In this document: piece by piece, positions 24,044 to 40,719 of the stretch
Numbering within the stretch: position 1 is the first letter of the stretch
Layout: every line of letters starts with the position of its first letter
DNA from: Novosphingobium sp.
GTDB taxonomy: Bacteria; Pseudomonadota; Alphaproteobacteria; Sphingomonadales; Sphingomonadaceae
Direction of reading: 5' to 3'
Length of the DNA: 64,000 bases
Assembly (NCBI RefSeq): GCF_027486195.1
Contig: NZ_JAIXPP010000042.1
Span: forward strand, 4,554 to 68,553
Program-made: the position numbers and the translations under genes
Notes under the pieces: generated by a model
The model's input: the letters and a program-made list of their open reading frames with translations, nothing else
Told to the model about the DNA's origin: nothing
The model's database searches: none

Positions 24044-24409
24044 CTATCGCAGCAGCGTGGCAGTTGATGCTGCGTCACCGTGGCCCGGCTGAAACCGCGG
24101 GGCGGCGAAGCTGAACGGCACGTCGGCGCTTCCACTATAGAGCTCGTGATGCGGAGCAGCTTCGGCGAACGCGGCGGCGAGGTTGAAGAGGTTGGTCTGC
24201 GCCTCGTCCATCCCGTCCAGTGTGCAGTTGGCCAGTTCCTCCAGGATATCCGGCAGCCGAGGCATGACCGCCGCATAAAGGCTGGCAAAGTCTGCCGCGC
24301 TCGCACCCCAGCGGATCCGGCTGCGATCATTCTCCGTGGCCTGCCCCCACTGCTCCGCGAAGGGGGTGAGGTCTGAAAACGCGGCGGGCAGCGCAAGTGT
24401 CGTGGTCAT
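24044..24409 (-). CDS. uncharacterised ~120-aa Rieske-oxygenase-associated protein (paralog 1)
   Basis: The start at 24409 has a GGAGAA RBS and lies 11 nt after the oxygenase stop. It is paralogous to 31139-31501 and 39102-39476 (shared P..F..L.PF..W and LFNL...AE.A.H.E.Y blocks). Confidence 0.6.
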   Translation of the reverse strand: MTTTLALPAAFSDLTPFAEQWGQATENDRSRIRWGASAADFASLYAAVMPRLPDILEELANCTLDGMDEAQTNLFNLAAAFAEAAPHHELYSGSADVPFSFAAPRFQPGHGDAASTATLLR

Positions 24410-24420
24410 CGGCGTTCTCC

Positions 24421-25674
24421 TCAGCGCGCAAGATACTGGTCGAGCGTGCGCGCGGCGTGACGGATCATGAACTCCTGATCCATGAGCTGCATGGTATCGA
24501 TCGCGCCCGAGCGAATGCCGAGGAAGGTGTCCTCCATGGTGCCGGTGTCCTCCAGCCAGGCATTGCGGTGGAGCGCGTTGACGTGCAGCTGCGCGATCCG
24601 CTCGGCTGCATTCCGGGCGGGCCTGAAGTAGTTGATCCCCTCCCACAAAGTGCGGCCATGATCGAGCGGCCAGAACTGGTGCGTGAAGAAGGCCATGCCG
24701 GGATAGCCGCAACCCGCCGCCAGGTGGATCAGGAAGTTCGGAAAGATGTTCGGCAGTTCGAACTGGAAGTCGCCGCGCCCCGTGGGATTGATCCCGGGCG
24801 GCACGAGTTCGGGCCGGGGACCATGCTCGCGGTCGGCATGCAGAACCCCGGCGAACTGCGCCGTCGAGGCTGCCGCGTCCATCCCGCCCCCGTAGATCGT
24901 CGAGGAGGCATGCGGCCCTACCAGCTTGAAATCGGCGTGCTCGATGCCGGTGAAGCCCGGCAGCGATCCGGCGTGGATGGTGGGGACGTGGTACCCTTCC
25001 GAAAACGCGTAGAGGGCCACTTTCCAGTTGCATTCCAGCACGGTCGAATAGCGGAATGCCGTGGTTGCCTCGTGGTAGGGGAAACCGCTGAACAAGGCGC
25101 CGAAGTCTCCCAGATAGTCGGCGAGGCTCTGTTCAGGCTGATCCGCGAAGTTGATGAAGATGAACCCCTCCCACGTATCGCAGGCAATCTCTCGCAGGCC
25201 GAGGCAGGCCTTGTCGAGCTGCCCGAAGCCGCTTTCCAGCGGCACTGAGCGCAGTGGGCCGTCGGTGTTGAACACCCAGCCATGGAACCGGCACGAAAGG
25301 ACATTGGCCCGCGCCTTGCCGAAGCTCTCGAAGCCGCTCGTCGGCACGACCTTGTTGCCGCGGTGGGTGCAGACATTGTGGAACGCACGGACCTTGCCGT
25401 CCTTGCCGCGCACGATCAGCACGGAAGTATCGGCGACCGGCATTTCCTTGACCTTGTAGTCGCCCCGCTCGGGAATCTCCCAATCCGTCGCGACTTTGAG
25501 CCAGGCGCGGCCGAAGACCTTCTTCCGCTCGAGCGCATAGATTTCGGGATCGCGAATGGCATCGATCGCGACCGGGCCAACGCCCAGCTCCGTTCTGATC
25601 TGATCGATCGAACGGCCGAGATGGGCGAATTTCTCCGCGCCCGGACGCAGCGTTGCACCGGAAAGATCATTCAT
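24421..25674 (-). CDS. Rieske non-heme iron oxygenase, alpha subunit (set 1)
   Basis: 417 aa with the Rieske motif CTHRG...CRFHGW and a catalytic C-terminal domain. Confidence 0.9.
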   Translation of the reverse strand: MNDLSGATLRPGAEKFAHLGRSIDQIRTELGVGPVAIDAIRDPEIYALERKKVFGRAWLKVATDWEIPERGDYKVKEMPVADTSVLIVRGKDGKVRAFHNVCTHRGNKVVPTSGFESFGKARANVLSCRFHGWVFNTDGPLRSVPLESGFGQLDKACLGLREIACDTWEGFIFINFADQPEQSLADYLGDFGALFSGFPYHEATTAFRYSTVLECNWKVALYAFSEGYHVPTIHAGSLPGFTGIEHADFKLVGPHASSTIYGGGMDAAASTAQFAGVLHADREHGPRPELVPPGINPTGRGDFQFELPNIFPNFLIHLAAGCGYPGMAFFTHQFWPLDHGRTLWEGINYFRPARNAAERIAQLHVNALHRNAWLEDTGTMEDTFLGIRSGAIDTMQLMDQEFMIRHAARTLDQYLAR

Positions 25675-25707
25675 GTGCAGTCTCCTAGGTCAGGAATGGG
25701 GACGAGC

Positions 25708-26190
25708 TCAGGCGTCCGACAATTGTGCCGGTTTCGGCTGCCAGCCGTCCGGGTAGTGCGAGATCAGGTCCGCCTCGAGCTCGAGGTAGGCGAAGCGCCA
25801 CCGGCCCTCGTCGAGCCTGACTTGCGCCTTGTAGCGGCCGCCGATCCAGTAGGCCTTGCCGCTGGCTGCCGTGGCCGCCTCCCACAGATAGAAGTCGACC
25901 GTTCCCGCCGTTTGATCCTCGGCCAGGGCAACCTTGGGCGAGACAAGAAAATGCAGAGTCCACCTGAAGCCGGCATCGGCATTGCCGGCGACCCCGGCGG
26001 CGATCGCTTCGCTTCCCTCGAAGCTGCCGTACTGATCGATCACGAACCGGCTGTCGGCGGTGAACAGCGGGCGAAGCGCTGCTGCCGATGGGCCGGCGTC
26101 AAAGGCGCGCCCGAGGTCTGCAATCAGGTCGTCAATGGCTCGCAACGCTTCGAGCTGGCGCAGGCGCTGTTCGAGATTGCCTGTGTCCAT
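25708..26190 (-). CDS. SnoaL_4/NTF2-like protein (set 1)
   Basis: The start at 26190 has a GGGAGAAAG RBS. 160 aa: NLEQRLRQLEALRAIDDLIADLGRAFD...RWRFAYLELE. The ORF-track N-terminal extension was discarded. Confidence 0.7.
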   Translation of the reverse strand: MDTGNLEQRLRQLEALRAIDDLIADLGRAFDAGPSAAALRPLFTADSRFVIDQYGSFEGSEAIAAGVAGNADAGFRWTLHFLVSPKVALAEDQTAGTVDFYLWEAATAASGKAYWIGGRYKAQVRLDEGRWRFAYLELEADLISHYPDGWQPKPAQLSDA

Positions 26191-26254
26191 TGTCTTTCTC
26201 CCTGTCGCTGCCGGGGTGGCACGGGGCCACAGCCTTGGGCCACCCCGGCATTCG

Positions 26255-28681
26255 TCAGAACGAGAACCGTGCCGAGAGATACCACTCGCGCGGGCGGCCA
26301 TAGACGCCCTCGGTGACTCCGCCGAAGGAATCGGCGTAACCCGAGCCGAGATAGAGTGCCTTGGTCAGGTTCTTGACGCCGAGGGTTGCACCCCACTTCT
26401 CTGTCGGGTCGGTGTAGGCAATCGCCGCGTTGACGAGGTGGTAGCCGTCCTGGATCAGCAGCGGCGTGTTGATCGCATCGTTGTAGACGCGGGTGCGGTA
26501 CGACCAGTCGATGCGCGGCTGGAAGCTGCCGATGTTGCCAGCCTGGATGTTGTAGGAAACCGCCGCGCTCATCGTCCAGCGCGGGGCATTCTGGAGCTTG
26601 GTTGCGGTCGTGACACCGGCATTGAGCGCGCGGATGTCGACATTGCGGTACTTGGCATCGAGATAGCCGAGGCCGCCCTCGATCCGCAGTCCATCCACGG
26701 GCCGCGCCTGGAACTCCAGTTCGAAGCCCTGGATGCGCGCTTCGGCAGCGTTCTGGATGATCGGCGCAAAGCCAAGGGTGGGATCATTTACCGTGATCTG
26801 CAGGTTCTTGTAATTATTGAGGAACACTGCACCATTCAGGCGAAGCTTGCGGTCAAACAGATCGCTCTTGAAGCCGAATTCGTAGGTCTCGCTGGTTTCG
26901 GGCCGGAACGAGGGAATGAACGCGAAGGGCGGGAACACACGCTGGGTGAAGCCACCGCCCTTGAAGCCCTTTGAGTAGGACACGTAGGTCAGTATCTCAG
27001 GGCTGAAGCGGTAGGACAGGCTTGTCATCGGCGTCCACGCCTTGTCCTTGATCGAGGACGTCCGCCCCAGCGGCCCCATCAGCGGATCGCCGTTCTTGAG
27101 CCCGGACCCATCAGGATTGAGCGGCGCACCGGTCAGGAAGCCTGCCTCGACCACGAACTGGTTCTCGTTGCTGAAGGACTTCTTGTCCTGCGTCCAGCGG
27201 ATGCCTGCGGTCAGGTTGAGATTGGGCACCACTTCGTAGGTCGCCTGGCCGAAAAATGCCAAGCTTTGGCCCTTCAGCGCCGCGCCGCTAAGGAAGACGG
27301 CGTCAACGATCTCAACCAGATCGCGATGGTTGCCGCTCTCGTCGGAGTAGTAGCCGCCGATCACCCAGTTGAGCTTCTTGTCGAGCAGATCGCCCAGAAG
27401 TTGCACTTCCTGCGAGAACTGGTGCTGCTTCCAGTCGCTGTTGGTCTGGATGATCGAGGCAGGGCTGTGGTCGGAATCGCGCGTCCAGAAGCCAGTCACC
27501 TTGCGGTAGGCCGTGATCGACTTGATCGAGAAATTGGGAGCAACCTTCCACTCGGCCGTGCCGGAAGCGCCCCAGATGTTCACATTCGAGGCTGACTGAT
27601 AGGGCTTGGGATTGAACCGGTTGAACACGTTCGAGACGGTCGTGAAAGTGCCGCCATGCCGGTAGGGTCCAACAACCCATTGGCTGTTGTAGCAGGAGGT
27701 ATTGGTCAGCCGCGCCGGGTTGGTCGTGTCGAGGCAGACGCCCGGTGCGCCGGAATAGGCGGCATTCCAGTAGGCGGCAGCCGGTGCGTTCTCGTTGATG
27801 GCGATGGCCACGTTGGGCGCTGAATTCTCGCGGGTGCGCGAACCGTCCACCGCAAGGTCGATGGTGAAATCGCTGCTCGGCTCCAGCCGCAGCGCGAACC
27901 GGCCCGCAAGATTGTCGGTATCGCCGAGATCCGGCGCGCCTGCGATCACGCCCTTCACGTAGCCGTTGCGCTTGTGCACGAAGCCCGCGAAGCTGGAGTA
28001 GACGCCCTCGGCAAGCGGGACATCGATGTTGCCCTTGATCTGGACCCGGCCAAAGCTGCCTGTCGTGGCTTCCAGCGCACCGCCAAGATCGCGGCCCGGC
28101 TTCTTGGTCACCACGCTCACGGCGCCGCCGATGGTGTTGCGGCCAAACAGCGTGCCCTGCGGCCCGCGCAGGACCTCGATCCGCTCGACGTTGAGAACAT
28201 CCAGCACGTTGCCCACACCGCGCGAGATGTAGACGCCATCCAGGTACAGTCCGACACCGGGATCGGCGGAGAGCTGGTAGTCGTTCTGGCCGATGCCGCG
28301 GATGAAGATCGCGGCGGTGGCGTTGCTGGCGGAAACCGGGACCGAGCTGTTGAATTTCACGTTCGGGGTGAAGTCGCCGATCTGGGTGACGTTGTCGATC
28401 CCGCGCTCCTGCAGGCCAGCGCCGGTAACTGCGGAGATGGCAATGGGGGTGTCCTGCAGTGACTCAGCGCGCCGGCGTGCGGTGACGGTGATCTCTTCGA
28501 CCCCGGTGTTGTCGGCTGCTTGTGCCTGCTGGGGCGCAGCCGCGGCTTGTGCGTGCGCGGTACCGGTGCCAACCAGCACTGCAAACAGCGATGCGCCCAT
28601 CAGCAATCCGCAGCGCTTGATCGCTTCCGCACTGATCTGCATGACCGGCATCCCCCCGGACATCACCGACAATCTTTGCAT
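26255..28681 (-). CDS. TonB-dependent receptor
   Basis: 808 aa with a signal peptide, a plug region (EEITVTARRRAESLQDTPIAISAV) and a terminal ...YLSARFSF. The start may be a few codons downstream. Confidence 0.9.
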   Translation of the reverse strand: MQRLSVMSGGMPVMQISAEAIKRCGLLMGASLFAVLVGTGTAHAQAAAAPQQAQAADNTGVEEITVTARRRAESLQDTPIAISAVTGAGLQERGIDNVTQIGDFTPNVKFNSSVPVSASNATAAIFIRGIGQNDYQLSADPGVGLYLDGVYISRGVGNVLDVLNVERIEVLRGPQGTLFGRNTIGGAVSVVTKKPGRDLGGALEATTGSFGRVQIKGNIDVPLAEGVYSSFAGFVHKRNGYVKGVIAGAPDLGDTDNLAGRFALRLEPSSDFTIDLAVDGSRTRENSAPNVAIAINENAPAAAYWNAAYSGAPGVCLDTTNPARLTNTSCYNSQWVVGPYRHGGTFTTVSNVFNRFNPKPYQSASNVNIWGASGTAEWKVAPNFSIKSITAYRKVTGFWTRDSDHSPASIIQTNSDWKQHQFSQEVQLLGDLLDKKLNWVIGGYYSDESGNHRDLVEIVDAVFLSGAALKGQSLAFFGQATYEVVPNLNLTAGIRWTQDKKSFSNENQFVVEAGFLTGAPLNPDGSGLKNGDPLMGPLGRTSSIKDKAWTPMTSLSYRFSPEILTYVSYSKGFKGGGFTQRVFPPFAFIPSFRPETSETYEFGFKSDLFDRKLRLNGAVFLNNYKNLQITVNDPTLGFAPIIQNAAEARIQGFELEFQARPVDGLRIEGGLGYLDAKYRNVDIRALNAGVTTATKLQNAPRWTMSAAVSYNIQAGNIGSFQPRIDWSYRTRVYNDAINTPLLIQDGYHLVNAAIAYTDPTEKWGATLGVKNLTKALYLGSGYADSFGGVTEGVYGRPREWYLSARFSF

Positions 28682-29025: not shown

Positions 29026-30051
29026 TCAGTGGAAGCCGATGCGCTTCAGCGTCTCCGAAGGGCGCTGCCCGAAACGCTCGGTATAGTCGCGCGCGAACTT
29101 TGACAGGTGGGTAAACCCGCAGGAGAGGGCCACCTCGGTCACCGTGAGGCCGGTTTCGGCGGCCTCCTGCAACTGGCGATGCGCGAGCGAAAGGCGGCAG
29201 TTCTTGAGGTATACCATGGGTGTCGTCCCGCGGAACCGGCGGAAGCCCGTGTGCAGCGAGCGCGCCGATACGCCTGATACCGCGATCATTTCGTCAAGCG
29301 TGATCGGATCGGCGGCATGGTGCCGGATGAACTCCTCGGCCCGGCGCACATAATAAGGAGCCGGCGCTGCGGCCGGGGTATCGAAGAGCTCGGAATGATT
29401 GTGCGGCACAGCGGCAAGCAGCAACCGCTGCAGCGCCTGTTCGACCGAGCCAACCACGCGGGTATGGCTGAAGGCGGAAGATCCCCGGTCGAGATCGTCG
29501 CAGATCGTGCGCACCAGTTGCGCGAAGCTGACGGCAGCGCCCGAAAGCGAGACCGGTGTGTTGCAGAACCGCAGGTCAGCCGCCTTGAACCCGAGTTCCT
29601 GAGAAAGCGCAGCCTCGAGACCGCCCTTCGACAGCTTCACCGTGAAATGCTTGTAGCCTTCGCCAAAGACCTGCTGGACCCGCTCTCCGGGATTGAGCAC
29701 GCACATGTGCCCCGGCTCCATCTCGAAAGTCCGTTTGCCCTGCGTGATCCTCACCGCGCCGAACAGCGAGAACTGGACGAGATAGAGATTATCCATCGGG
29801 GGAATGTCGACGATGACCCGCCCGTAGGGATTGCCATAGTCCGTGGCGTTGAAGGAAACTGATCGCAGCGACGCATGGTGGTGGCGGAAGGCGATGGGCG
29901 GTCTGCCGCCTTCAAGGCGCAAATCGTGCGGGCAGAACATCTCGCTCATGTGGTGATGCACCTGGTCGATGTCGTGCGACAGCAGACGCGGAAAACTCGC
30001 CAGCGGCATGCCGCTGCCGTCCCAGCGGCTTGATGCGAGTGCAGGTACCAT
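29026..30051 (-). CDS. AraC-family transcriptional regulator
   Basis: C-terminal double HTH (ITLDEMIAVSGVSARSLHTGFRRF...VALSCGFTHLSKFARDYTERFGQRP). The start at 30051 was chosen for its GGGGGAG RBS and because it does not overlap the upstream gene. Confidence 0.85.
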   Translation of the reverse strand: MVPALASSRWDGSGMPLASFPRLLSHDIDQVHHHMSEMFCPHDLRLEGGRPPIAFRHHHASLRSVSFNATDYGNPYGRVIVDIPPMDNLYLVQFSLFGAVRITQGKRTFEMEPGHMCVLNPGERVQQVFGEGYKHFTVKLSKGGLEAALSQELGFKAADLRFCNTPVSLSGAAVSFAQLVRTICDDLDRGSSAFSHTRVVGSVEQALQRLLLAAVPHNHSELFDTPAAAPAPYYVRRAEEFIRHHAADPITLDEMIAVSGVSARSLHTGFRRFRGTTPMVYLKNCRLSLAHRQLQEAAETGLTVTEVALSCGFTHLSKFARDYTERFGQRPSETLKRIGFH

Positions 30052-30086
30052 AAGCGCGGCTCCCCCCTTTGTTATCCAATAGCCGG

Positions 30087-30809
30087 TCAGGCTCCCAGAA
30101 CCACTCCATCCATGATCAGATCGGGCTTCGGATAGGCCCGTTTGCTGTGGCTGAGTCCCTGATTCAGCAGCATATCGCAAGTCATCAGACCTACCAGCCC
30201 GGGATTCAAAACAGGCACGGGCAAATGCTCGGCCAGATAGCGGTGCGACTGGTGCATTGTCGTCGAGCCGAGGATCAGAACATCGGCGCCGTCCTCTTCG
30301 ATGGCGCGCTGCGCGGCCTCCAGCAAAAGCGGAAACACGCTGTCCTCCTTGCCGGCGAGCAGTTCGCTGGTATCGGGACGCACGCCGATCGAGCGGACCG
30401 ACGCAAGTCGTCCAGCGAGGCCGTTCTCGGCGAGGACCTTGTCATAAAGCCAGCGCCACCGGTCCCACATGCTGAGGATCGAGAAGCGGCGCCCCAACTG
30501 TGCGGCGAGGGCATATGTCGGCTGCGCTGCGCCGACGACGGGAATGGACAGCCGCGAGCGGAGTGCGGCGACCCCGGAGTCGCTCATCGAATTGACGCAG
30601 ACCGCAGCGCACCCGTCGGCTTCGGCCGTCGCACCGGCTTCGAGGCAGAAGGCATCCGCGATCGAACCTTCATAGATCGAGCCGAGTGCGCCGCCGCCCC
30701 TGGCTGCGCAGGTCATCTCGACCGTCACCCCCCGAGCCGCCAGCTCCGGAGGAACCTGCGCAGAAAAGGCGCGCAGGCCTTCTTCCGGCACAGGTACGGG
30801 GATGATCAT
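30087..30809 (-). CDS. Asp/Glu/hydantoin racemase-family protein
   Basis: MIIPVPVPEEG..., AVCVNSMSDSG and ADVLILGSTTMH resemble the two Cys/Ser-containing half-sites of the family. Start uncertain (30842 or 30809). Confidence 0.65.
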   Translation of the reverse strand: MIIPVPVPEEGLRAFSAQVPPELAARGVTVEMTCAARGGGALGSIYEGSIADAFCLEAGATAEADGCAAVCVNSMSDSGVAALRSRLSIPVVGAAQPTYALAAQLGRRFSILSMWDRWRWLYDKVLAENGLAGRLASVRSIGVRPDTSELLAGKEDSVFPLLLEAAQRAIEEDGADVLILGSTTMHQSHRYLAEHLPVPVLNPGLVGLMTCDMLLNQGLSHSKRAYPKPDLIMDGVVLGA

Positions 30810-31138
30810 CCTGATTCTTCGATCGCTCACGCCATACCTCACTGGATAGCTGGCTCAGCCGGTAACGGCCTCTGCGGCGATGCAAGGCAGCGTGCCGCAG
30901 CCCGATCACTCGGTGACAACAAGGTGACCCGCACGTGACATCAGGTCCAATACTGAATGCGGCATCATATCAGACCTAAAAGGTATGATCCGAAGCCCCC
31001 CGATCATCGCCCGGCAGGACGGCTTTCTGCCACCGTGGCCCATTTCCGCAGTCAGCGGCCAGCCCTTGCGCCTTCGGGATAGCCCGACTTGATCCCAGGG
31101 CGCAGCCTTGGGCGAATACGCAGAGTCATGGAGAGGGT

Positions 31139-32688: not shown

Positions 32689-32718
32689 GCTGACGCGCCA
32701 AGAGATCCGGGAGTGACC

Positions 32719-33945: not shown

Positions 33946-34847
33946 CCGTGGCCGTGCGCAGCGCTCGCGTGGATCTCGCAGCTGATCCGGATCAGCGTCG
34001 CCAGTTCTGGCGTTACGTCGCCCGAGCGATGGACCATCATGATCGGCGAGCGGGCGCCGCGGTCCGCAAGCGGCAGATAGCGGACATCATCCCGGCGCAG
34101 ACGCTGCACCGACTCCGGGACAACGGCAAAACCGGCATAGGCGGCGACCAGGCCGATCGCGGTCTGGAGTTCGCGCACTTCCATGATCTTGGCGGGCGTC
34201 AGGCCAAGGTCATGGATCACGCCCAGCACCTGATCCGCGTAGCTCGGGCGTGCCGGCCTCGGATAGACGATCAGCGGCTCGACCAGCAATTCGGACAAGT
34301 GCACGGCGCGGCCAACCGATACGAGATGGTGATCCGCCGGAACCGCTGCGACCAGTGGTTCGTCCGCCAGCACGATGCGGCGAACCGCCGGATCTTCCAC
34401 GCGCAAGCGGCCGAAACCCACATCGATCCGGCCCTCTTTCAGCGCCGTGATCTGTTCGACCGAAGAACACTCCAGCAGCGAAACGTCCGCGCTGATCGAC
34501 TCTTCGCGAAAGCGGCGGATCACCTGCGGCAGCAAGCCGTAGAGCGTCGAGCCGACGAACCCGATCACGAACCGGCGCCCGCCCTGATCGGACAGGCGGC
34601 CGACCATCGACTGGATCTGCTCCATCCCGGCCAGCACCTGGACCGCCTGCTCATGCAGAAGACGGCCCGCTTCGGTGAGCTTCAAGGGGCGGCTCGACCG
34701 GTCGACCAGCTCGGCCCCGACTTCTTCCTCGAGCAGGCGGATTTGCCGGCTGAGTGGCGGCTGGGCCATGTTGAGGAGCTGCGCCGCGCGGGTGAAGTTC
34801 CGCTCCCGGGCGACGGCGACGAAGTACCTGAGGCGCCTGAGATCCAT
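33942..34847 (-). CDS. catR: LysR-family regulator, CatR-like
   Basis: MDLRRLRYFVAVARERNFTRAAQLLNMAQPPLSRQIRLLEEE.... Divergent from catB. Confidence 0.85.
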   Translation of the reverse strand: MDLRRLRYFVAVARERNFTRAAQLLNMAQPPLSRQIRLLEEEVGAELVDRSSRPLKLTEAGRLLHEQAVQVLAGMEQIQSMVGRLSDQGGRRFVIGFVGSTLYGLLPQVIRRFREESISADVSLLECSSVEQITALKEGRIDVGFGRLRVEDPAVRRIVLADEPLVAAVPADHHLVSVGRAVHLSELLVEPLIVYPRPARPSYADQVLGVIHDLGLTPAKIMEVRELQTAIGLVAAYAGFAVVPESVQRLRRDDVRYLPLADRGARSPIMMVHRSGDVTPELATLIRISCEIHASAAHGHG

Positions 34848-34850
34848 ATC

Positions 34851-34865
34851 ATACCCTCAAGGTCT
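34851..34865. promoter_or_regulatory. putative CatR recognition site
   Basis: ATACC-ctcaa-GGTCT interrupted dyad in the catR-catB intergenic region. It is the reverse complement of the AGACC-N5-GGTAT form I recall for Pseudomonas CatR (4 of 5 positions match in one half). Confidence 0.45.
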
Positions 34866-34948
34866 TGCCGTTTGCGGAGGTCATTCACGGTCAGTTGGCA
34901 AAAATTGACCTGTTTTCAGTCTCTCTCAGCTTCAAAGACCATCCTGTC

Positions 34949-36112
34949 ATGACAGTCAAGATCACGCACATCGATACCTGGATTGTCGATGTACCGACAA
35001 TTCGACCCCATGTTCTGGCCATGACCTCGATCAGCCGACAGAGCATGACGCTGGTCCGCGTTCACACTTCCGATGGCGTCATCGGGCTCGGCGAAGGCAC
35101 GACGATCGGGGGGCTGGCCTATGGCGAAGAGAGCCCGGAATCGATCAAGCTGACGATCGACCAGTACATGGCGCCCTTGCTGATAGGTCAGATGCTGATC
35201 GATCCGGCCGCGCAGCTGGCGCCGATCCGCAGCACCATTGTCGGCAACCACTTCGCCAGGAACGCGGTGGAGACCGCGCTGCTGGATATTCAGGGGCAGC
35301 GGCTCGGGGTACCCCTCACCACGCTTCTGGGCGGGCGCCAGCGCGAACGGATCCCGGTACTCTGGACCCTTGCCAGTGGTGACACCGCCAAGGATATTGC
35401 GGAGGCGGAGGCCCTGATCGCCGGCCGGCGGCACAACATTTTCAAGCTGAAGATCGGCAAGCGTGCTTTGCGTCAGGATGTCGCGCATGTCGCTGCGATC
35501 AAGCGGGCGCTGGGCGACGAGGCCTCCGTGCGGGTCGACGTCAATCAGGCATGGGATGCGGTCACGGCGCTGCGCGGCGCCGCCATGCTGGCCGACGCCG
35601 GCGTCGATCTGATCGAGCAGCCACTGCCCCGCGCCGATCGCCTGGGGATGGCTCACCTGACCAGGCATTCGCCCCTCCCTATAATGGCGGACGAAGCCTT
35701 GCGCGGCCCGGTCGATGCGATGGACTACGTCGTCGCCGGTGCCTGCCATGCGTTTTCGATCAAACCGGCGCAGGCTGGCGGATTGTTCGCGGCGCGCGAC
35801 GTTGCGGCGATCGGAGAGGCCGGGCAGATCGGCATCTACGGCGGCACGATGCTGGAAGGCAGCATCGGCACCGCAGCATCGGCGCACCTGTTCGCGACGC
35901 TTCCCTCGCTCGGCTGGGGCACGGAGCTATTCGGGCCGCTCCTCCAGACCGAAGACATTCTGACCGAGCCGCTCGAATATCGCGACTTTGCCCTGACGGT
36001 ACCCGCTGCGCCGGGGCTCGGACTCAGTCTCGATCTCGACAAGATCAACCGCTTTCGCCGCGATGCGCCGTCAAGAACGGTCAGCACACCCGGACGACAG
36101 GAGAACAACTGA
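34949..36112 (+). CDS. catB: muconate cycloisomerase
   Basis: MR/MLE family: MTVKITHIDTWIVDVPTIRPH..., FKLKIG, VRVDVNQAWD, IEQP. Lies in cat gene context. Confidence 0.9.
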   Translation: MTVKITHIDTWIVDVPTIRPHVLAMTSISRQSMTLVRVHTSDGVIGLGEGTTIGGLAYGEESPESIKLTIDQYMAPLLIGQMLIDPAAQLAPIRSTIVGNHFARNAVETALLDIQGQRLGVPLTTLLGGRQRERIPVLWTLASGDTAKDIAEAEALIAGRRHNIFKLKIGKRALRQDVAHVAAIKRALGDEASVRVDVNQAWDAVTALRGAAMLADAGVDLIEQPLPRADRLGMAHLTRHSPLPIMADEALRGPVDAMDYVVAGACHAFSIKPAQAGGLFAARDVAAIGEAGQIGIYGGTMLEGSIGTAASAHLFATLPSLGWGTELFGPLLQTEDILTEPLEYRDFALTVPAAPGLGLSLDLDKINRFRRDAPSRTVSTPGRQENN

Positions 36113-36396
36113 TGCTTTTCATGGTAAGAATGGATGTGCACGTGCCCCACGAGCTCGATCCTGCGAAGTTTGACGCACTCAAGGCCACCGAGAAAGCGCG
36201 GGCGGAGGACCTGCAGCGCAGCGGCAAGTGGCGGCACCTCTGGCGCATCGCCGGACAATACGCGAACATCAGCATCTTCGATGTCGCCGATGCGGGCGAG
36301 CTCCACGAACTGATGATCAGCCTCCCGCTGTTCCCCTACATGACCACCGAGGTGACGGCCCTCTGCCGCCACCCTTCCGCCATTTCCGCCGACTGA
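36112..36396 (+). CDS. catC: muconolactone delta-isomerase
   Basis: 94 aa: MLFMVRMDVHVPHELDPAKFDALKATEKARAEDLQRSGKWRHLWRIAG.... ATGA-type overlap with catB. Confidence 0.9.
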   Translation: MLFMVRMDVHVPHELDPAKFDALKATEKARAEDLQRSGKWRHLWRIAGQYANISIFDVADAGELHELMISLPLFPYMTTEVTALCRHPSAISAD

Positions 36397-36416
36397 CCCG
36401 CAACGAGGAGGATGCC

Positions 36417-37322
36417 ATGACCGACATCGTGAAATCACCGGCCGTGCAGGCCCTGTTCGACCGCGCCGCCGGGCTGGACCAGACCGGCGGCAACGCGCGG
36501 CTGAAGGCGATCCTGCGCGATCTGCTTGAGGCGCTCGCCGTCACCATCGAGAAGCACGACATTTCCGAGAGCGAGTTCTGGGCCGGGCTGTCCTTCCTCC
36601 AGAACGGCGCGCAGGAGTTCGGGCTGATCGCACCAGGGATCGGGATCGAGCACTTCCTTGATCTGCATATGGACGCCAAGGACGCGGAAGCGGGCGTGAC
36701 CGGCGGCACGCCGCGCACGATCGAAGGGCCGCTCTACGTGGCCGGTGCGCCGCTCGTCGATGGTGACCTGACCCGGACCAATGACGTGAACCTGACCGAC
36801 GATCCCGATGATACGGAAACCCTGACGATGTCGGGCACTGTGACCGGGCCGGACGGCGAACCGGTGGGGGATGCGGTGCTGCATGTCTGGCACGCGAACT
36901 CCAAGGGTTTCTACTCGCACTTCGACCCGACCGGCGCGCAATCGCCGTTCAACAACCGCCGCCGGATCAAGCTCGGTTCCGATGGCCGCTACGCATTCCG
37001 CTCCAAGATGCCGCGCGGCTATGCTTGCCCCCCCGGCGGCGCGACCGAGCAGCTCATGCACGCGCTCGGCCGGCATGGAAACCGCCCGGCCCACGTCCAT
37101 TTCTTCCTTGAAGCGCCGGGGTATCGCACGCTGACCACCCAGATCAATTTCGGCGATGATCCTCACGCCCGCGACGACTTTGCGTTCGGCACGCGCGAAG
37201 GGCTGCTGCCTGTGCCCGAGCGGACCGGCGACGGAGCGCATATCGCCTTCGATTTCCGCATGCAAAAGGCCCGCTCGGCTGATGAGCAAGGCTTCTCGCA
37301 GCGCCCCCGGGCAGCCGCGTGA
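36417..37322 (+). CDS. catA: catechol 1,2-dioxygenase
   Basis: Intradiol dioxygenase blocks LHVWHANSKGFYSHFD and GNRPAHVHFF. GAGGAGG RBS. Confidence 0.9.
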   Translation: MTDIVKSPAVQALFDRAAGLDQTGGNARLKAILRDLLEALAVTIEKHDISESEFWAGLSFLQNGAQEFGLIAPGIGIEHFLDLHMDAKDAEAGVTGGTPRTIEGPLYVAGAPLVDGDLTRTNDVNLTDDPDDTETLTMSGTVTGPDGEPVGDAVLHVWHANSKGFYSHFDPTGAQSPFNNRRRIKLGSDGRYAFRSKMPRGYACPPGGATEQLMHALGRHGNRPAHVHFFLEAPGYRTLTTQINFGDDPHARDDFAFGTREGLLPVPERTGDGAHIAFDFRMQKARSADEQGFSQRPRAAA

Positions 37323-37462
37323 GCAAGGTCTTTCCCTCTCCGGCGGCAGCGCTGGAAGGGCTGTTGTTCGATGGAATGACCATCATGTCGGGCGGGTCCG
37401 GGCTCGAACAGAACCCGCAGGGCACTCTGGCCGAGCGGATCAGGGCCGGCGTGGCCGGCTGA
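37319..37462 (+). pseudogene. 47-codon stub of 3-oxoadipate/3-oxoacid CoA-transferase subunit A (pcaI/scoA-like)
   Basis: The GTG overlaps the catA stop. VSKVFPSPAAALEGLLFDGMTIMSGGSGLEQNPQ... matches the N-terminus of subunit A (..A..GL..DGMTIM.GGFGLCGIPE), then degenerates and stops. Confidence 0.55.
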
Positions 37463-37485
37463 ACCAACTTTCGACAGGTGGGACG

Positions 37486-38271
37486 ATGACACAAAGCAGC
37501 GGCCGGGCGACGATGAACGATGGCGCGGCCATCGCCTGGACCCTCGAAGGACCGGAGGATGGTCCGGTCCTGTTGCTGTCCAATTCGCTCGGGACCAGCC
37601 GCGCCATGTGGCAGCCACAGCTGCCGGCGTTCGCCGCCCGCTACCGCGTCCTGCGCTATGATACGCGAGGGCATGGCCAGTCAGCCGTTACCCTGGGTGA
37701 CTACAGCCTCGATCGTCTGGGGCGCGACGTGGTGAATCTGCTCGATGCCCTTGGCCTTGATCAGGTCGATTTCTGCGGCCTCTCGTTGGGGGGCATGACC
37801 GGGCAATGGCTGGGCGTTTTCGCGCCCGAACGCGTCCGGCGCTTGGTGCTTGCCAACACATCGGCCTTCATGGGGCCGCCCACCGGCTGGCAGGATCGGA
37901 TGAACCGCGTGCGCTGCGAAGGCATGGCCGCGATTGCCGATGCGGTGATCGCACGCTGGTTCACCCCCGCGTTTGCCGGCACCCCCGCAACTGCCAAAGT
38001 TCTCGAAACCCTGCTGAACACCGACCCTGCGGGATACGCCGGGTGCTGCGCCGCGATCCGCGACATGGACCTGCGCCGCATCATCCCGCTCATCGACCGG
38101 CCCACGCTTGTGATCAGTGGCCTGCAGGATCCGGCAACCCCACCCGAGCATGCGGCCTTGATCCATCAGGCGATTGAGGGCTCCACGCTCGTTTCGCTCG
38201 ATGCCAGCCACTTGTCCAACATCGAACAGCCAGAGGCTTTTGCCGAGGCTGTCTTGGCGTTTCTGGCTTGA
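37486..38271 (+). CDS. pcaD: 3-oxoadipate enol-lactonase (alpha/beta hydrolase)
   Basis: GPVLLLSNSLGTSRAMWQPQ, RYDTRGHGQS and the nucleophile elbow GLSLGG. Lies in cat/pca context. Confidence 0.85.
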   Translation: MTQSSGRATMNDGAAIAWTLEGPEDGPVLLLSNSLGTSRAMWQPQLPAFAARYRVLRYDTRGHGQSAVTLGDYSLDRLGRDVVNLLDALGLDQVDFCGLSLGGMTGQWLGVFAPERVRRLVLANTSAFMGPPTGWQDRMNRVRCEGMAAIADAVIARWFTPAFAGTPATAKVLETLLNTDPAGYAGCCAAIRDMDLRRIIPLIDRPTLVISGLQDPATPPEHAALIHQAIEGSTLVSLDASHLSNIEQPEAFAEAVLAFLA

Positions 38272-38275
38272 TGAC

Positions 38276-38578
38276 CTAGCGCTCGATGCGCAGTTCGCCG
38301 TCCTGTTCGGTCACGTCGTAGGCTCGGATCGGCACCGAGCAGGGCGCCGCGCGCGGCTCGCCTGTGCTGATGCAGAACGATCCCATGTGGAACGGGCAGA
38401 AAATCTGGCCATTCTCCACATAGCCTTCCGACAGCGAGGCTTCGCCATGGCTGCACAGGTCGTCGGTGCAGTAGAAGCCGTCCTTCCAGCGATAGACAGC
38501 CAGCGCGTGGCCATCATCCAGCTCCACCCGCAAGGGCTCGTCGGCAGGCACGTCGGCGGCCCGGCACAGTGTCAACAC
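38276..38578 (-). CDS. Rieske-type [2Fe-2S] ferredoxin
   Basis: 100 aa with CSHG...CPFH. GTG start with an AAGGAG RBS. Confidence 0.85.
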   Translation of the reverse strand: MLTLCRAADVPADEPLRVELDDGHALAVYRWKDGFYCTDDLCSHGEASLSEGYVENGQIFCPFHMGSFCISTGEPRAAPCSVPIRAYDVTEQDGELRIER

Positions 38579-38616
38579 AGAGGTCTCCTTAAAATCGGAT
38601 GGTCAGCCACGAACGC

Positions 38617-39099
38617 TCAGGCCATGGGCACTTTGCCGGCCCACGGCGCTGCTGCCGGACTGGAAAGGCGCGGATCGAGCTGCACGCGGTCGAACCGCCA
38701 CTCACCGCCGTGCTCGCTGAGTTCGCTGTCATACCAGCCGCCGTACCAGGTATCGCACGCGCTGCCGTCGTCCTGCCTCATGGTCGCCAGCTCCCACAGG
38801 TACCACCGGCAGGTCGCGGTGGTCGCATCCGGCCCGAGTTCGATCAGCGGCGAGACCATGTAGTGCAGCGACCAGGTGACGAAGCCCTGCGCCAGTTCGG
38901 ACAAGCCGGCAGCAATCGCGTCGCGCCCATGCAGGTGCGCAACGCCGTCCAGCTGCCATTCGGCATCCGGATGGAACAGCGGCGCGAGGATGGCGGGTTC
39001 GTTCTTGCGGTCGGCGCCCACGGCATAAGTCGCGATCAGTTTCCGGATCGCCTCGCAGGCCTCGATGCGCCGCAGCCGCAGTTCGAGTTCGGCGGGCAC
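38617..39099 (-). CDS. SnoaL_4/NTF2-like protein (set 3)
   Basis: 160 aa: ELRLRRIEACEAIRKLIATYAVGADRKN...EWRFDRVQL. Paralogous in architecture to 25708-26190. Confidence 0.7.
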   Translation of the reverse strand: MPAELELRLRRIEACEAIRKLIATYAVGADRKNEPAILAPLFHPDAEWQLDGVAHLHGRDAIAAGLSELAQGFVTWSLHYMVSPLIELGPDATTATCRWYLWELATMRQDDGSACDTWYGGWYDSELSEHGGEWRFDRVQLDPRLSSPAAAPWAGKVPMA

Positions 39100-39101
39100 G
39101 A

Positions 39102-39476
39102 TCAGCGCGGTCCGTTGGGCGGGAGCGCCTGCCAGGTCTGGTCGCGGCCGTGGACTGCGACGAAGCGCTGTTCCTCGAAGGCGTAAGGCACGCCCACCTG
39201 GCCCCGGTAGAACTCGATGTGCGGCGCGACTTCGGCCATCGACAGCGCAATGTTGAAAATGCCCTGATGCGATTCCGGGAGTTCGCCGAGCGGAAAGGCG
39301 TCGCAGGCATCGAGGATGGCCTCGATATGCGGCAGCACGCCGCCATAAAGGGCGTGAAGGTCCGCTTCGCTGGCTTCGCGGCGCGCGCTGGTGCGCTCGT
39401 CCGCAGTGCCAAGGTTCCAGCGGGCGAAGGGGATCAGCGCCTCGAACCCGGCGGGGACGGTCATTGGCTGGTTCAT
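39102..39476 (-). CDS. uncharacterised ~120-aa Rieske-oxygenase-associated protein (paralog 3)
   Basis: The start at 39476 (MNQPMTVPAGFEALIPFARW...) lies 22 nt after the oxygenase stop. The protein ends 2 nt before the NTF2-like gene. Confidence 0.6.
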   Translation of the reverse strand: MNQPMTVPAGFEALIPFARWNLGTADERTSARREASEADLHALYGGVLPHIEAILDACDAFPLGELPESHQGIFNIALSMAEVAPHIEFYRGQVGVPYAFEEQRFVAVHGRDQTWQALPPNGPR

Positions 39477-39498
39477 GCTCAGGGTCCTTCCAGCGGGA

Positions 39499-40719
39499 TC
39501 AGGCGTTGACGTAGTCGTCCACAACCTTGCAGTTGTGGCGGATGAGGATTTCTTCGTCCTGAAGGTGCTGGACCTTCTTCGCGCCCGAAAGCATGGCGCG
39601 GTAGGTGTCTTCCATCGTCGCGGTATCCTCAAGCCAGGCGTTGCGCTGGAGAACCATCGACCGTTCGAAGCCCCAGAGCTCACTGTAGGTGCGCGGCTTC
39701 TTCAGGTAATATTTGCCTTCCCACAGCGTCTTGTCGTGCGCGATCGGCCAGAACTGGTGGGTGAACCAGATACCCTCGGAGACGTGCAGGAGCACGCTGG
39801 GGAACAGCACGCTCAGCTCGAACGCCCAGTCCGGCTCGCGGTTGGGGTTGAGTGTTGGCGGCAGGCTCGAGGCACCGCCCTGCGCGGCCAGCGATCCGCG
39901 TGAACGCTCGTTGGCCAGATCGCCGATCGGGGTGCGCGGCAGGTTTTCGACCTGAAGCCGGACCGAGCAAGTCCGGTGCGGCCCGAACAGCTCCACATCC
40001 TCGATCGGCCCCTTGAACACGTTGGGGAAGGACCCGGCATGGATGGTGTCGACATGGTAAGCCTCGGCAAAGGCATCCGATGCGACCTTCCAGTTGCAGT
40101 TGAGGGTCGTGTAATAGGTGAAGCCGTGGTCGCAGGCGGCGAAATCGAACCCGCCGAAATGATCGGCATAGCCGCCAAGGAAGTCCTTGAGGGATTGGAC
40201 CGGGCCGGGATCGACGTTGACGAAGACAAACCCGGCCCAGGTATCGCAATGGACTTCGGTCAGGCCGTTCTCAGCCTTGTCGAAGCAGCTGTAGAAGCGC
40301 TCTTCCTGCGGCACGTTCACCAGTTCGCCCTGCGCGTTGTAGACCCAGCCGTGAAACCGGCAGGTGACCACCCCGGCGCGATTGCGCCCGTAGGTTTCCT
40401 GGCCGGTCTCGGTCACCACGGTGTTGCCGCGGTGCGAGCAGGCGTTGTGGAACGCGCGGATGACCTTGTCCTTCCCGCGCATGATGATCACCGAGGTATC
40501 GGCGAGGTCCAGCCGGCGGACCTTGTACGAGCCCACCTCCGGAACTTCCCGTTCAAGCGCGACGTAGAGCCACTGCTTCTTGAAGATCTTCTCTTTTTCT
40601 TTCTCGTAGTACGCAGGGTCGATGTAGGGCGCGACCGGAAGCGGCTCCTGGCCGAGATCGGGGTACTTGCGCGCCCAGCGGCCGGGTTCCTTGTCGATCT
40701 GAAGTGCCTCAGTTGCCAT
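39499..40719 (-). CDS. Rieske non-heme iron oxygenase, alpha subunit (set 3)
   Basis: 406 aa with CSHRG...CRFHGW. AGGAGAG RBS before ATG 40719. Confidence 0.9.
   Translation of the reverse strand: MATEALQIDKEPGRWARKYPDLGQEPLPVAPYIDPAYYEKEKEKIFKKQWLYVALEREVPEVGSYKVRRLDLADTSVIIMRGKDKVIRAFHNACSHRGNTVVTETGQETYGRNRAGVVTCRFHGWVYNAQGELVNVPQEERFYSCFDKAENGLTEVHCDTWAGFVFVNVDPGPVQSLKDFLGGYADHFGGFDFAACDHGFTYYTTLNCNWKVASDAFAEAYHVDTIHAGSFPNVFKGPIEDVELFGPHRTCSVRLQVENLPRTPIGDLANERSRGSLAAQGGASSLPPTLNPNREPDWAFELSVLFPSVLLHVSEGIWFTHQFWPIAHDKTLWEGKYYLKKPRTYSELWGFERSMVLQRNAWLEDTATMEDTYRAMLSGAKKVQHLQDEEILIRHNCKVVDDYVNA

What the first reader, a model, noticed from the sequence alone, without database searches (positions are those of the whole stretch)
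24044..40719. Triplicated uncharacterised ~120-aa protein, always welded to a Rieske oxygenase alpha subunit
Three paralogous small proteins (24044-24409, 31139-31501, 39102-39476; 120-124 aa) each lie directly next to one of three paralogous Rieske alpha subunits. They are separated by an ATGA overlap, an 11-nt gap or a 22-nt gap. The partner can sit upstream (set 2) or downstream (sets 1 and 3) of the oxygenase but is never separated from it. Conserved blocks visible by eye are an N-terminal P-x-x-F-x-x-L-x-P-F-x-x-W, an R-rich stretch, and NLFNLAAAFAEAAPHHELY / TLLNLCLALAECSATIEMY / GIFNIALSMAEVAPHIEFY. I do not recognise them as a beta subunit, ferredoxin, chaperone or any named family. 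Adjacency retained across three diverged copies argues for a physical or functional partnership with the oxygenase (extra subunit, assembly factor or substrate-delivery protein).
Basis: partly seen in the sequence, partly recalled or inferred. Interest (0 to 1): 0.8.

Follow-up and report, generated by a model that had tools for sequence, protein, structure and literature searches.

The report
Unnamed small partner of Rieske oxygenases
Three copies of an unnamed 13-kDa helical protein each sit beside their own Rieske oxygenase catalytic subunit, and the same pairing recurs in hundreds of bacteria, so this looks like an overlooked, dedicated partner protein of a large oxygenase clade whose role has never been tested.

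Summary
Three paralogous ORFs (S1-S3, 120-124 aa, 29-38% identical) each abut one of three paralogous Rieske alpha subunits (R1-R3), with an 11-nt gap, an ATGA overlap and a 22-nt gap.

S belongs to a large unannotated family: at least 1059 clusters at 50% identity, almost all stand-alone proteins of 105-135 aa. It has no Pfam, NCBIfam or PDB sequence match. A confident AlphaFold model (pLDDT 92; four helices plus an ordered tail) has no Foldseek match in the PDB.

The linkage holds in both directions:
- Starting from S, 86 of 90 genomic copies lie beside and co-oriented with an R1/R2/R3-type alpha.
- Starting from alpha (30-82% identity), 68 of 80 metagenome loci carry S next door. Ten of the other 12 are cut by a contig end.

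Each alpha keeps its own S, while the ferredoxin and reductase are shared, and alpha and S co-diversify (r = 0.85). The alpha fold is closest to beta-less CntA. The neighbouring SnoaL_4 protein resembles NTF2-type enzymes, not a beta subunit.

The best reading is a dedicated, non-catalytic, alpha-specific partner, either a surrogate small subunit or an assembly factor. Physical binding is inferred, not shown. The genomic context points to catabolism of aromatic amines or indole/skatole to catechol.

The parts
24044..24409 (-). S1, small partner protein (121 aa, pI 4.4)
   Evidence: Translation. Family HMM E = 1.4e-47. AlphaFold model pLDDT 92.2. Lies 11 nt downstream of R1, with an SD in the gap.
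24421..25674 (-). R1, Rieske oxygenase alpha subunit (417 aa)
   Evidence: PF00355 + PF00848. Iron and Rieske ligands are invariant. Model pLDDT 86.5, closest fold CntA.
25708..26190 (-). SnoaL_4 / NTF2-like protein 1 (about 160 aa). Probably an enzyme, not a beta subunit.
   Evidence: PF13577. Invariant D30/H79/Y123. Profile against the PDB hits LinA, BaiE, scytalone dehydratase and SnoaL-like proteins, with no Rieske beta.
26255..28681 (-). TonB-dependent receptor heading the SnoaL-R1-S1 operon
   Evidence: Plug + TonB_dep_Rec. Conserved upstream of SnoaL-R1-S1 in sphingomonad loci.
29026..30180 (-). AraC-family regulator
   Evidence: AraC_binding_2 + HTH_18. Conserved next to the module in many loci.
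30087..30842 (-). Asp/Glu/hydantoin racemase-family protein, divergent from S2-R2
   Evidence: PF01177. Also found next to S2-R2 in L001 and L073.
31139..31501 (+). S2, small partner protein (120 aa), here upstream of its alpha
   Evidence: Translation. HMM E = 1.6e-44. ATGA overlap with R2.
31498..32688 (+). R2, Rieske oxygenase alpha subunit (396 aa)
   Evidence: PF00355 + PF00848.
32713..33945 (+). Ferredoxin reductase (Pyr_redox_2 + Reductase_C). The only one in the region, so presumably shared by the three oxygenases.
33942..38271 (.). LysR regulator (33942-34847, -), catB-like cycloisomerase (34865-36112, +), catA catechol 1,2-dioxygenase (36228-37322, +) and an alpha/beta hydrolase (ORF 37156-38271, +). 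Together they form the catechol ortho-cleavage branch.
   Evidence: cat genes recur beside the modules in many loci.
38276..38578 (-). Rieske-type ferredoxin (100 aa). The only one in the region, so presumably shared.
   Evidence: PF00355. Conserved at the end of the Fmd-R3-S3-SnoaL module.
38617..39099 (-). SnoaL_4 / NTF2-like protein 3 (160 aa). Its GTG start lies 2 nt after the S3 stop.
   Evidence: PF13577. Junction. Alignment and PDB profile.
39102..39476 (-). S3, small partner protein (124 aa)
   Evidence: Translation. HMM E = 1.4e-62. Lies 22 nt downstream of R3.
39499..40719 (-). R3, Rieske oxygenase alpha subunit (406 aa from the ATG at 40719)
   Evidence: PF00355 + PF00848. Orthologues at 50-88% identity in Alpha-, Beta- and Gammaproteobacteria are always followed by S.
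40898..42202 (-). Acetamidase/formamidase-family amidase, first gene of the Fmd-R3-S3-SnoaL-Fdx module
   Evidence: PF03069. Conserved directly upstream of R3-type alphas in about 35 loci and in L166.

Best explanation
S is a dedicated, non-catalytic partner protein of one particular clade of Rieske oxygenase alpha subunits. This clade is about 400 aa long, has a CntA-like fold and has no canonical NTF2-type beta subunit.

Each alpha is co-translated with its own cognate S from the same mRNA. S, an acidic 13-kDa helical protein, binds that alpha specifically. The conserved LPxxFxxL...W N-terminal helix, the R29/R33/E83/E89/R105 charge cluster and the ordered C-terminal tail are the probable contact surfaces. 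Binding is needed to obtain a stable, active oxygenase component.

The most likely form is a permanent small subunit (alpha3S3) that plays the structural role beta plays in alpha3beta3 enzymes.

Shown here:
- the family exists;
- it lacks any known fold or family;
- it is near-obligately and reciprocally linked to this alpha clade;
- the pairing is one S per alpha;
- the two proteins co-diversify;
- the junctions have the anatomy expected of translational coupling.

Inferred only: physical binding, stoichiometry, and the effect on assembly or activity.
For: (a) Forward linkage. 86 of 90 S copies in 79 loci from genomes of three proteobacterial classes lie within 90 nt of, and co-oriented with, an R1/R2/R3-type alpha. 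Two of the four exceptions sit at contig edges. Distant family members (E about 1e-20) are again next to a 400-aa Rieske alpha.

(b) Reverse linkage. Of 80 metagenome loci retrieved with the alpha alone (30-82% identity), 68 have S adjacent on the same strand. Ten of the other 12 are truncated on a side where S could lie, one has S one gene away, and only L102 truly lacks it.

(c) Specificity. The window has three alphas and three S genes but only one ferredoxin and one reductase. R1-type alphas pair with S1-type, R3 with S3 and R2 with S2. Alpha-alpha and S-S distances over 153 pairs correlate at Pearson 0.85 and Spearman 0.72, with 0 of 200 permutations reaching this.

(d) Gene order can flip (139 S downstream, 15 upstream) without loss of contact. 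The junctions are an SD-bearing gap of 11 nt, one of 22 nt, and an ATGA overlap.

(e) S does not look like an enzyme or a cofactor carrier. There is no conserved Cys or metal motif. The family-wide invariants are hydrophobic residues plus an Arg/Glu set, and H87 and H110 are not conserved across the family.

(f) No canonical beta is present. The SnoaL_4 neighbour matches NTF2-type enzymes and has an invariant Asp-His-Tyr set. It is also absent from S2-R2, L080, L081 and L162. S is therefore the only constant companion.

(g) S evolves about twice as fast as alpha, as structural small subunits typically do.
Against: No natural alpha-S fusion was found among the best-scoring 120 of 1347 hits to a fused profile, nor among the top 150 S-family representatives.

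The closest solved relative of alpha, CntA, works as an alpha3 trimer with no partner, so a partner is not structurally required by the fold.

A few alphas of the clade lack their own S (L102; the second alpha of L164, which has a small cupin in that position). One S is an orphan (L051).

Operon-mates co-diversify whatever their function, so the correlation in (c) is not specific proof of contact.
Confidence: 0.5

Rival explanations
1. S is a transient assembly or maturation factor. It binds the nascent alpha to help insert the mononuclear Fe(II) or the Rieske cluster, or to help trimerisation, and then leaves. This would resemble DmpK/MmoD in diiron monooxygenases or the small activator proteins of nitrile hydratase.
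For: The linkage, cognate pairing and coupling evidence is the same as for the best explanation. The absence of any alpha-S fusion fits a partner that must dissociate. Invariant E83/E89, together with H87/H110 in the window's subgroup, could ligate iron. CntA-like alphas can be stable without a partner.
Against: H87 and H110 are not conserved across the family and there is no Cys, so a conserved metal site is doubtful. A generic chaperone function could be shared among paralogous alphas, yet each alpha keeps its own S. No similarity to any known maturation factor was found.
Confidence: 0.22
2. S is an effector or coupling protein. It binds the oxygenase reversibly and gates substrate access, O2 activation or electron transfer from the ferredoxin, by analogy with MmoB, DmpM and T4moD of diiron monooxygenases.
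For: S is small, acidic, cofactor-less and alpha-specific. Its conserved Arg/Glu surface residues and ordered tail could plug a channel or shape the ferredoxin docking site. No fusion exists.
Against: No effector has ever been described for a Rieske oxygenase (own knowledge; literature searches found none). There is no fold or sequence similarity to the MmoB family. Nothing in the data speaks specifically for regulation.
Confidence: 0.1
3. S is a separate small enzyme or a substrate/product-handling protein of the pathway. It might be an isomerase or tautomerase acting on the oxygenase product, or a carrier delivering a hydrophobic substrate. It would be linked to alpha only by metabolic coupling.
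For: Conserved polar residues exist (R29, R33, E83, E89, Y45, R105). The adjacent SnoaL_4 shows that product-processing enzymes are embedded in these operons.
Against: The pair is retained across very different pathway contexts: formamidase/cat clusters, luciferase-like monooxygenase clusters and amidase/malate-synthase clusters. These are unlikely to share one small-molecule intermediate. Linkage is to the alpha gene itself rather than to the pathway. Three substrate-diverged alphas each have their own diverged S.
Confidence: 0.08
4. S is a divergent or fragmented piece of a known oxygenase component, such as a split-off part of alpha or a degenerate beta subunit.
For: Its position is where beta genes normally sit, directly downstream of alpha.
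Against: hhalign of the S profile gives probability 0.14% against the alpha profile and 0.24% against the SnoaL_4 profile. The alphas match PF00848 end to end and model as complete CntA-like subunits. S is all-helical rather than an NTF2 cone. Foldseek finds no resemblance to any PDB chain, including all solved Rieske oxygenases.
Confidence: 0.02

Closest known systems
Beta (small) subunits of alpha3beta3 Rieske oxygenases (PF00866, NTF2 fold; e.g. NahAd, BphA2, HcaF)
   Same: S is small and non-catalytic, and is encoded directly beside the alpha gene (usually downstream). There is one copy per alpha paralogue. It co-diversifies with alpha and evolves faster than alpha.
   Different: There is no sequence or profile similarity. 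S has a predicted four-helix-plus-tail fold instead of an NTF2 cone and no Foldseek hit to any solved beta. S is about 120 aa against about 170-190 aa. The associated alpha is closest to a beta-less enzyme.
CntA / Stc2-type alpha3 Rieske monooxygenases (carnitine monooxygenase, stachydrine demethylase)
   Same: These are the best structural matches of the R1 model (CntA: TM 0.85 on the target, rmsd 2.8 A). The size is similar at about 370-410 aa, and neither has an NTF2 beta subunit.
   Different: Sequence identity is only about 20%, and sequence searches align only the N-terminal half. CntA and Stc2 are active as plain alpha3 with no extra polypeptide (own knowledge of the published structures). 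The clade studied here almost always carries S.
NdmE, the GST-like structural subunit of the NdmCDE caffeine N7-demethylase
   Same: It is a precedent for an additional non-catalytic polypeptide, other than beta, that is needed to assemble a Rieske oxygenase complex (own knowledge).
   Different: It has a GST fold, is restricted to one system, and is unrelated to S. No Pfam GST hit was found.
Effector and assembly proteins of soluble diiron monooxygenases (MmoB/DmpM/T4moD; DmpK/MmoD) and nitrile hydratase activator proteins
   Same: These are small, cofactor-less, operon-embedded proteins specific for one oxygenase or metalloenzyme, acting by protein-protein contact (own knowledge).
   Different: They belong to a different enzyme class and have different folds. 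S gives no Pfam, NCBIfam or PDB match to them. No such protein is known for Rieske oxygenases.
Accessory proteins of aniline-type dioxygenases (GS-like and glutamine-amidotransferase-like proteins; cf. SkaE/SkaH in the Rhodococcus ska skatole cluster)
   Same: Extra proteins are encoded with a Rieske alpha in aromatic-amine and skatole catabolic clusters (PMC13101512, Table S6). The pathway position, next to a StyA-like indole/skatole monooxygenase, is comparable.
   Different: Those accessories are enzymes of known families and accompany a canonical alpha+beta pair. S is none of these.

Membership tests
Rieske non-haem iron oxygenase alpha subunit (R1, R2, R3) | N-terminal Rieske [2Fe-2S] domain with CxH...CxxH ligands | tested here: met
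   PF00355 at E about 1e-16 in all three. C102, H104, C128 and H131 are invariant in 54 sequences.
Rieske non-haem iron oxygenase alpha subunit (R1, R2, R3) | C-terminal catalytic domain with 2-His-1-carboxylate mononuclear iron site | tested here: met
   PF00848 matched end to end. H229, H234 and D376 (with E226 bridging) are invariant. The model aligns to solved alphas with probability 1.00.
Rieske oxygenase beta subunit (PF00866 / NTF2 fold), considered for S | NTF2-like alpha+beta cone fold and a match to the Ring_hydroxyl_B profile | tested here: not met
   No Pfam hit at E <= 1. The model is four helices plus a coil tail. No Foldseek hit to any beta chain. hhalign against the NTF2-like neighbour gives probability 0.24%.
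Rieske oxygenase beta subunit, considered for the SnoaL_4 neighbours | Closest relatives are oxygenase beta subunits, with no catalytic residues | tested here: not met
   The profile against the PDB hits 2RFR, SnoaL-like proteins, LinA, BaiE and scytalone dehydratase, with no beta subunit at E <= 1. D30, H79 and Y123 are invariant.
Ferredoxin (Rieske-type or plant-type), considered for S | Four conserved Cys/His cluster ligands | tested here: not met
   Median of 1 Cys per S protein, none conserved. No Pfam hit.
Diiron monooxygenase effector (MmoB/DmpM family) or assembly protein (DmpK/MmoD), considered for S | Profile or fold match to those families | tested here: not met
   No Pfam or NCBIfam hit. 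No PDB sequence or fold match. Functional analogy could not be tested with these tools.
New 'S' family (proposed here) | Stand-alone protein of 105-135 aa with the signature L-P-x2-F-x2-L ... W ... R-x3-R ... Y ... L ... E-x5-E ... R | tested here: met
   Conservation of 90% or more at these positions in 227 sequences non-redundant at 70%. All three window proteins carry every one of them.
New 'S' family (proposed here) | Gene directly adjacent to and co-oriented with a roughly 400-aa Rieske alpha of the R1/R2/R3 clade | tested here: met
   Forward 86 of 90. Reverse 68 of 80, with nearly all misses truncated by a contig end. Distant members confirmed.
New 'S' family (proposed here) | Physical complex with the cognate alpha | not testable with these tools

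The most novel reading that the evidence does not exclude
S is the first effector-type protein of a Rieske oxygenase. It would be a cofactor-less helical protein with a new fold that docks reversibly on its cognate alpha. There it would gate substrate entry, O2 activation or ferredoxin electron delivery, as MmoB-type proteins do for diiron monooxygenases. This would define a third functional architecture for the enzyme class, beside alpha3 and alpha3beta3.
Probability: 0.1. Interest if true: 0.9.

Novelty: new variant of a known kind. Interest (0 to 1): 0.72.

Why it matters
Rieske oxygenases are textbook enzymes of aromatic and amine catabolism and are popular biocatalysts. Their oxygenase component is described as alpha3 or alpha3beta3.

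The data show a very large clade whose alpha gene is almost never found without a 13-kDa protein of unknown fold. The clade has more than 1000 sequence clusters and spans Proteobacteria, Acidobacteria, Methylomirabilota and Binatia. [quoted passage not shown] No database or paper that I could search mentions the small protein.

If S is required, three things follow:
- Heterologous expression and activity screens of these alphas without S will have failed or misled.
- The classification of Rieske oxygenase architectures needs a new class.
- A new protein fold and interface becomes available for study.

There is also a concrete test system. The alpha of this clade is induced by indole and skatole in Acinetobacter piscicola p38 (gene1684). 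The unmentioned next gene should be S.

Tried and rejected
1. Pfam, NCBIfam and PDB-sequence searches of S found nothing.

2. Foldseek of the pLDDT-92 S model against the PDB gave a best E of 1.5 and TM of 0.33 or below. No AlphaFold DB library was on hand, so 'new fold' holds only relative to solved structures.

3. A complex model was attempted by fusing alpha, a (G4S)6 linker and S, with a 32-row paired alignment.

4. A search for a natural alpha-S fusion (Rosetta stone) found none.
   - A search with the fused profile returned only alpha-sized proteins of 392-442 aa.
   - The two long S hits, P0127 and P0263, look like a frameshift and a wrong start.

5. The SnoaL_4 neighbour as the beta subunit, with S as a third subunit, was rejected. 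SnoaL_4 resembles NTF2-type enzymes and is absent from many alpha-S pairs.

6. S as a fragment of alpha or of an NTF2 protein was rejected by hhalign.

7. A conserved His/Glu metal site in S was rejected as a family feature. H87 and H110 are conserved only in the window's subgroup.

8. Literature searches for a third subunit or accessory protein of Rieske oxygenases returned nothing relevant.

9. Naming the substrate from database names of alpha homologues failed, because the names are only generic.

10. Direct-coupling analysis of the 153 pairs was considered and not run, because about 90 effective sequences are too few for a meaningful result.

Full report
**Observation**

- S1: 24044-24409 (-), 121 aa.
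- S2: 31139-31501 (+), 120 aa.
- S3: 39102-39476 (-), 124 aa.

All three translate without interruption. They align over their whole length at 37-38% identity to S1.

Their neighbours are R1 (24421-25674, -), R2 (31498-32688, +) and R3 (39499-40719, -). Each carries a Rieske domain (PF00355) and a Ring_hydroxyl_A catalytic domain (PF00848). The cluster and iron ligands are intact.

The junctions are exactly as described:
- R1 stop, then 11 nt (GGAGAACGCCG, a Shine-Dalgarno), then the S1 start.
- S2 stop overlapping the R2 start as ATGA.
- R3 stop, then 22 nt containing GGAAGGA, then the S3 start.

A family HMM finds exactly three S genes and three alphas of this clade in the 64-kb window.

**What S is not**

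- No Pfam or NCBIfam model matches any S protein, even at E <= 1.
- A profile search of all PDB sequences gives nothing better than E = 0.39.
- An AlphaFold2 model of S1, built from a 65-sequence alignment, is confident (mean pLDDT 92.2, pTM 0.87). It shows four helices (residues 9-21, 26-35, 38-60, 69-89) followed by an ordered, mostly non-regular tail.
- Foldseek of that model against 350,542 PDB chains gives no match (best E 1.5, every TM-score 0.33 or below). That set includes every solved Rieske oxygenase and its beta subunit.
- Profile-profile comparison shows S is unrelated to the alpha subunit and to the neighbouring NTF2-like protein (probabilities 0.14% and 0.24%).

S proteins are acidic (median pI 4.9), soluble and about 13 kDa, with no conserved cysteine.

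**Size of the family**

A word-indexed search found 313 clusters (90% identity), all called 'hypothetical protein' and none with a Pfam domain. An exhaustive HMMER scan of 1.84 billion representatives found 1059 clusters at 50% identity with E <= 1e-3, of which 621 had E <= 1e-10. Nearly all are stand-alone proteins of 105-135 aa. The two long hits look like a frameshift and a mis-called start.

Across 227 sequences non-redundant at 70%, the positions conserved at 90% or more are L7, P8, F11, L14, W21, R29, R33, Y45, L74, E83, E89 and R105. The histidines H87 and H110, conserved in the window's subgroup, are not family-wide. This pattern of a hydrophobic stripe plus an Arg/Glu set is not that of a cofactor site or an obvious active site.

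**Co-occurrence, forward**

A scan of one genome per species returned 78 loci. These came from Novosphingobium, Sphingobium, Sphingomonas, Hyphococcus, Zoogloea, Marinobacter, Pandoraea, Paraburkholderia, Polynucleobacter, Immundisolibacter and others. Together with a Novosphingobium plasmid they hold 90 S copies.

Of these, 86 lie within 90 nt of, and on the same strand as, an alpha orthologous to R1, R2 or R3. Two of the four exceptions are at contig ends. One is an orphan next to an alanine symporter (L051). One sits beside a SnoaL gene without an alpha (L036).

More distant family members, looked up individually, are again next to a 400-aa Rieske alpha, in either gene order. This also holds in Methylomirabilota, Acidobacteria and Acinetobacter.

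**Co-occurrence, reverse**

I started from the alpha alone, using an alignment of eight alphas, and scanned metagenome contigs. This gave 80 loci whose alpha is 30-82% identical to R1.
- S is adjacent on the same strand in 68 of them.
- In 10 of the remaining 12, the contig ends on a side where S could lie.
- One has S one gene away (L110).
- Only L102 has full flanks and no S.

In a Pyrinomonadaceae locus, one alpha has S and a second alpha has a small cupin in that position. The alpha clade and the S family are thus almost co-extensive.

**Specificity**

The window has one Rieske ferredoxin and one ferredoxin reductase for three oxygenases, but each alpha has its own S.

S types track alpha types: R1 pairs with S1, R3 with S3 and R2 with S2. 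Over 153 pairs, the alpha-alpha and S-S distance matrices correlate at Pearson 0.85 and Spearman 0.72. None of 200 label permutations exceeded 0.11.

S diverges about twice as fast as alpha at short range. Gene order is S-downstream in 139 pairs and S-upstream in 15, so what is conserved is contact, not position.

**The rest of the module**

Two conserved arrangements recur:
- formamidase/acetamidase (PF03069), R3, S3, SnoaL_4, then a Rieske ferredoxin, sometimes after intervening genes;
- [TonB receptor], SnoaL_4, R1, S1, or alternatively R1, S1, SnoaL_4.

I tested whether the SnoaL_4 protein is a divergent beta subunit, and it does not look like one. Its profile matches uncharacterised NTF2 proteins, SnoaL-like proteins, LinA, BaiE and scytalone dehydratase, and no oxygenase beta at E <= 1. 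It has invariant Asp30, His79 and Tyr123, which resembles the catalytic sets of those NTF2-type enzymes (own knowledge). It is also absent from S2-R2 and from several distant alpha-S pairs.

The alpha model (pLDDT 86.5, pTM 0.89) is structurally closest to CntA, a beta-less alpha3 enzyme (TM 0.85 on the target, rmsd 2.8 A). Alphas of alpha3beta3 enzymes score TM 0.6-0.7. This clade therefore has no canonical small subunit, and S is its only constant companion.

**Mechanism**

The best-supported reading is that S is a dedicated, non-catalytic, alpha-specific partner made with alpha from one mRNA. It is most likely a permanent small subunit that takes the structural role of beta (confidence about 0.5).

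The closest rival is a transient assembly or maturation factor (about 0.22). It is favoured by the complete lack of alpha-S fusions and by the fact that CntA-type alphas can stand alone.

An effector or gating role (about 0.1) and a separate small enzyme or carrier (about 0.08) are not excluded. The latter is weakened because the pair persists across unrelated pathway contexts.

Physical binding is inferred.

**Pathway context (inference)**

In the window, the three modules flank a LysR regulator, catB, catA and an alpha/beta hydrolase, which together form a catechol ortho-cleavage set. cat genes or a catechol meta-cleavage set recur next to the modules elsewhere.

In Zoogloea and Acinetobacter, the Fmd-alpha-S-SnoaL block is fused to an iif/ska-type set. 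That set comprises a StyA-like flavin monooxygenase, a flavin reductase, an SDR, an outer-membrane channel, a Rieske ferredoxin and a reductase.

In Acinetobacter piscicola p38, the following is reported (PMC11434297):
- gene1687 and gene1688 (StyA-like enzyme plus flavin reductase) oxidise them.
- gene1690 is a Rieske ferredoxin.

The numbering fits the L166 gene order alpha-S-SnoaL-StyA-reductase-SDR-ferredoxin exactly. S would then be the unmentioned gene1685. This is inferred from the numbering and was not checked by sequence.

Rhodococcus uses a canonical aniline-dioxygenase set at the equivalent place (PMC13101512, Table S6).

A reasonable guess is that the amidase releases an aromatic amine from an N-acyl or N-formyl ring-opened intermediate, and that the alpha-S oxygenase converts it towards catechol. 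None of this was tested here.

**Novelty**

- No curated library names S (NCBIfam release of June 2026, Pfam 2025).
- Alpha homologues carry only generic names.
- Full-text searches for accessory or third subunits of Rieske oxygenases found nothing relevant.

I rate this a new variant of a known kind: a Rieske oxygenase system with an unrecognised, near-obligate extra component whose fold has no solved counterpart.

Noticed in passing
window 25708-26190 (-) and 38617-39099 (-); alignment A5: The SnoaL_4/NTF2-like proteins in the R1 and R3 operons have invariant Asp30, His79, Tyr123, Trp76 and Trp134. By profile they resemble LinA, BaiE and scytalone dehydratase rather than oxygenase beta subunits. 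They may dehydrate or otherwise process the oxygenase product.
   Followed up: partly
L166 3627-11983; L046 3437-11180; window 40898-42202: The Fmd-alpha-S-SnoaL block is embedded in iif/ska-type indole/skatole clusters in Acinetobacter and Zoogloea. These clusters hold a StyA-like monooxygenase, a flavin reductase, an SDR and a MetA/TodX channel. The gene numbering of the skatole-induced cluster of A. piscicola p38 (gene1684-1690, PMC11434297) fits this order, so S would be the unmentioned gene1685.
   Followed up: partly
L164 4001-5621: In a Pyrinomonadaceae contig, one alpha of the clade is followed by S. A second alpha (P0443) is followed instead by a 119-aa cupin (AraC_binding/Cupin_2) in the same position. 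This may be a replacement partner or a coincidence.
   Followed up: no
L051 6001-6402; L102 2014-3213: These are rare uncoupled cases. One is an orphan S next to a Na+/alanine symporter in a gammaproteobacterial MAG. The other is an alpha with full flanks and no S, lying among unrelated genes.
   Followed up: partly
window 30087-30842 (-): An Asp/Glu/hydantoin racemase-family gene lies divergently upstream of S2-R2 and overlaps the AraC ORF by about 90 nt as called. The same gene accompanies S2-R2 in L001 and L073. Its role (racemase, arylmalonate-decarboxylase-like or maleate-isomerase-like) is unknown.
   Followed up: no
window 23509-23949 (-): An HU-type DNA-binding protein gene with an N-terminal extension of about 55 aa as called sits directly downstream of S1. 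It is conserved there in the closest relative, L002.
   Followed up: no
window 7821-23081: Upstream of the oxygenase island lies a separate CoA-dependent catabolic cluster. It holds a P450, two acyl-CoA dehydrogenases, a ThuA-like protein, a LuxR regulator, an SDR, a thiolase-like protein, a double CoA-transferase III, two enoyl-CoA hydratases and an OYE/2,4-dienoyl-CoA-reductase-like flavoprotein. This is reminiscent of steroid or alicyclic side-chain degradation.
   Followed up: no
alignments A3/A6, R1 residues about 23-34 and 397-406: Alphas of the S-associated clade share a strongly conserved N-terminal W...YPELGTxPxP motif and a C-terminal LQDxExxxRH motif. G31, E401 and R405 are invariant, and W23, P28, L30 and D399 are at 90% or more. 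These are candidate S-contact sites. I could not compare them with S-less Rieske oxygenases.
   Followed up: no
PMC13101512 Table S6 (Rhodococcus ska cluster): The Rhodococcus skatole cluster has a gene of unknown function, SkaZ (QIX49837.1), directly after the alpha and beta genes.
   Followed up: no
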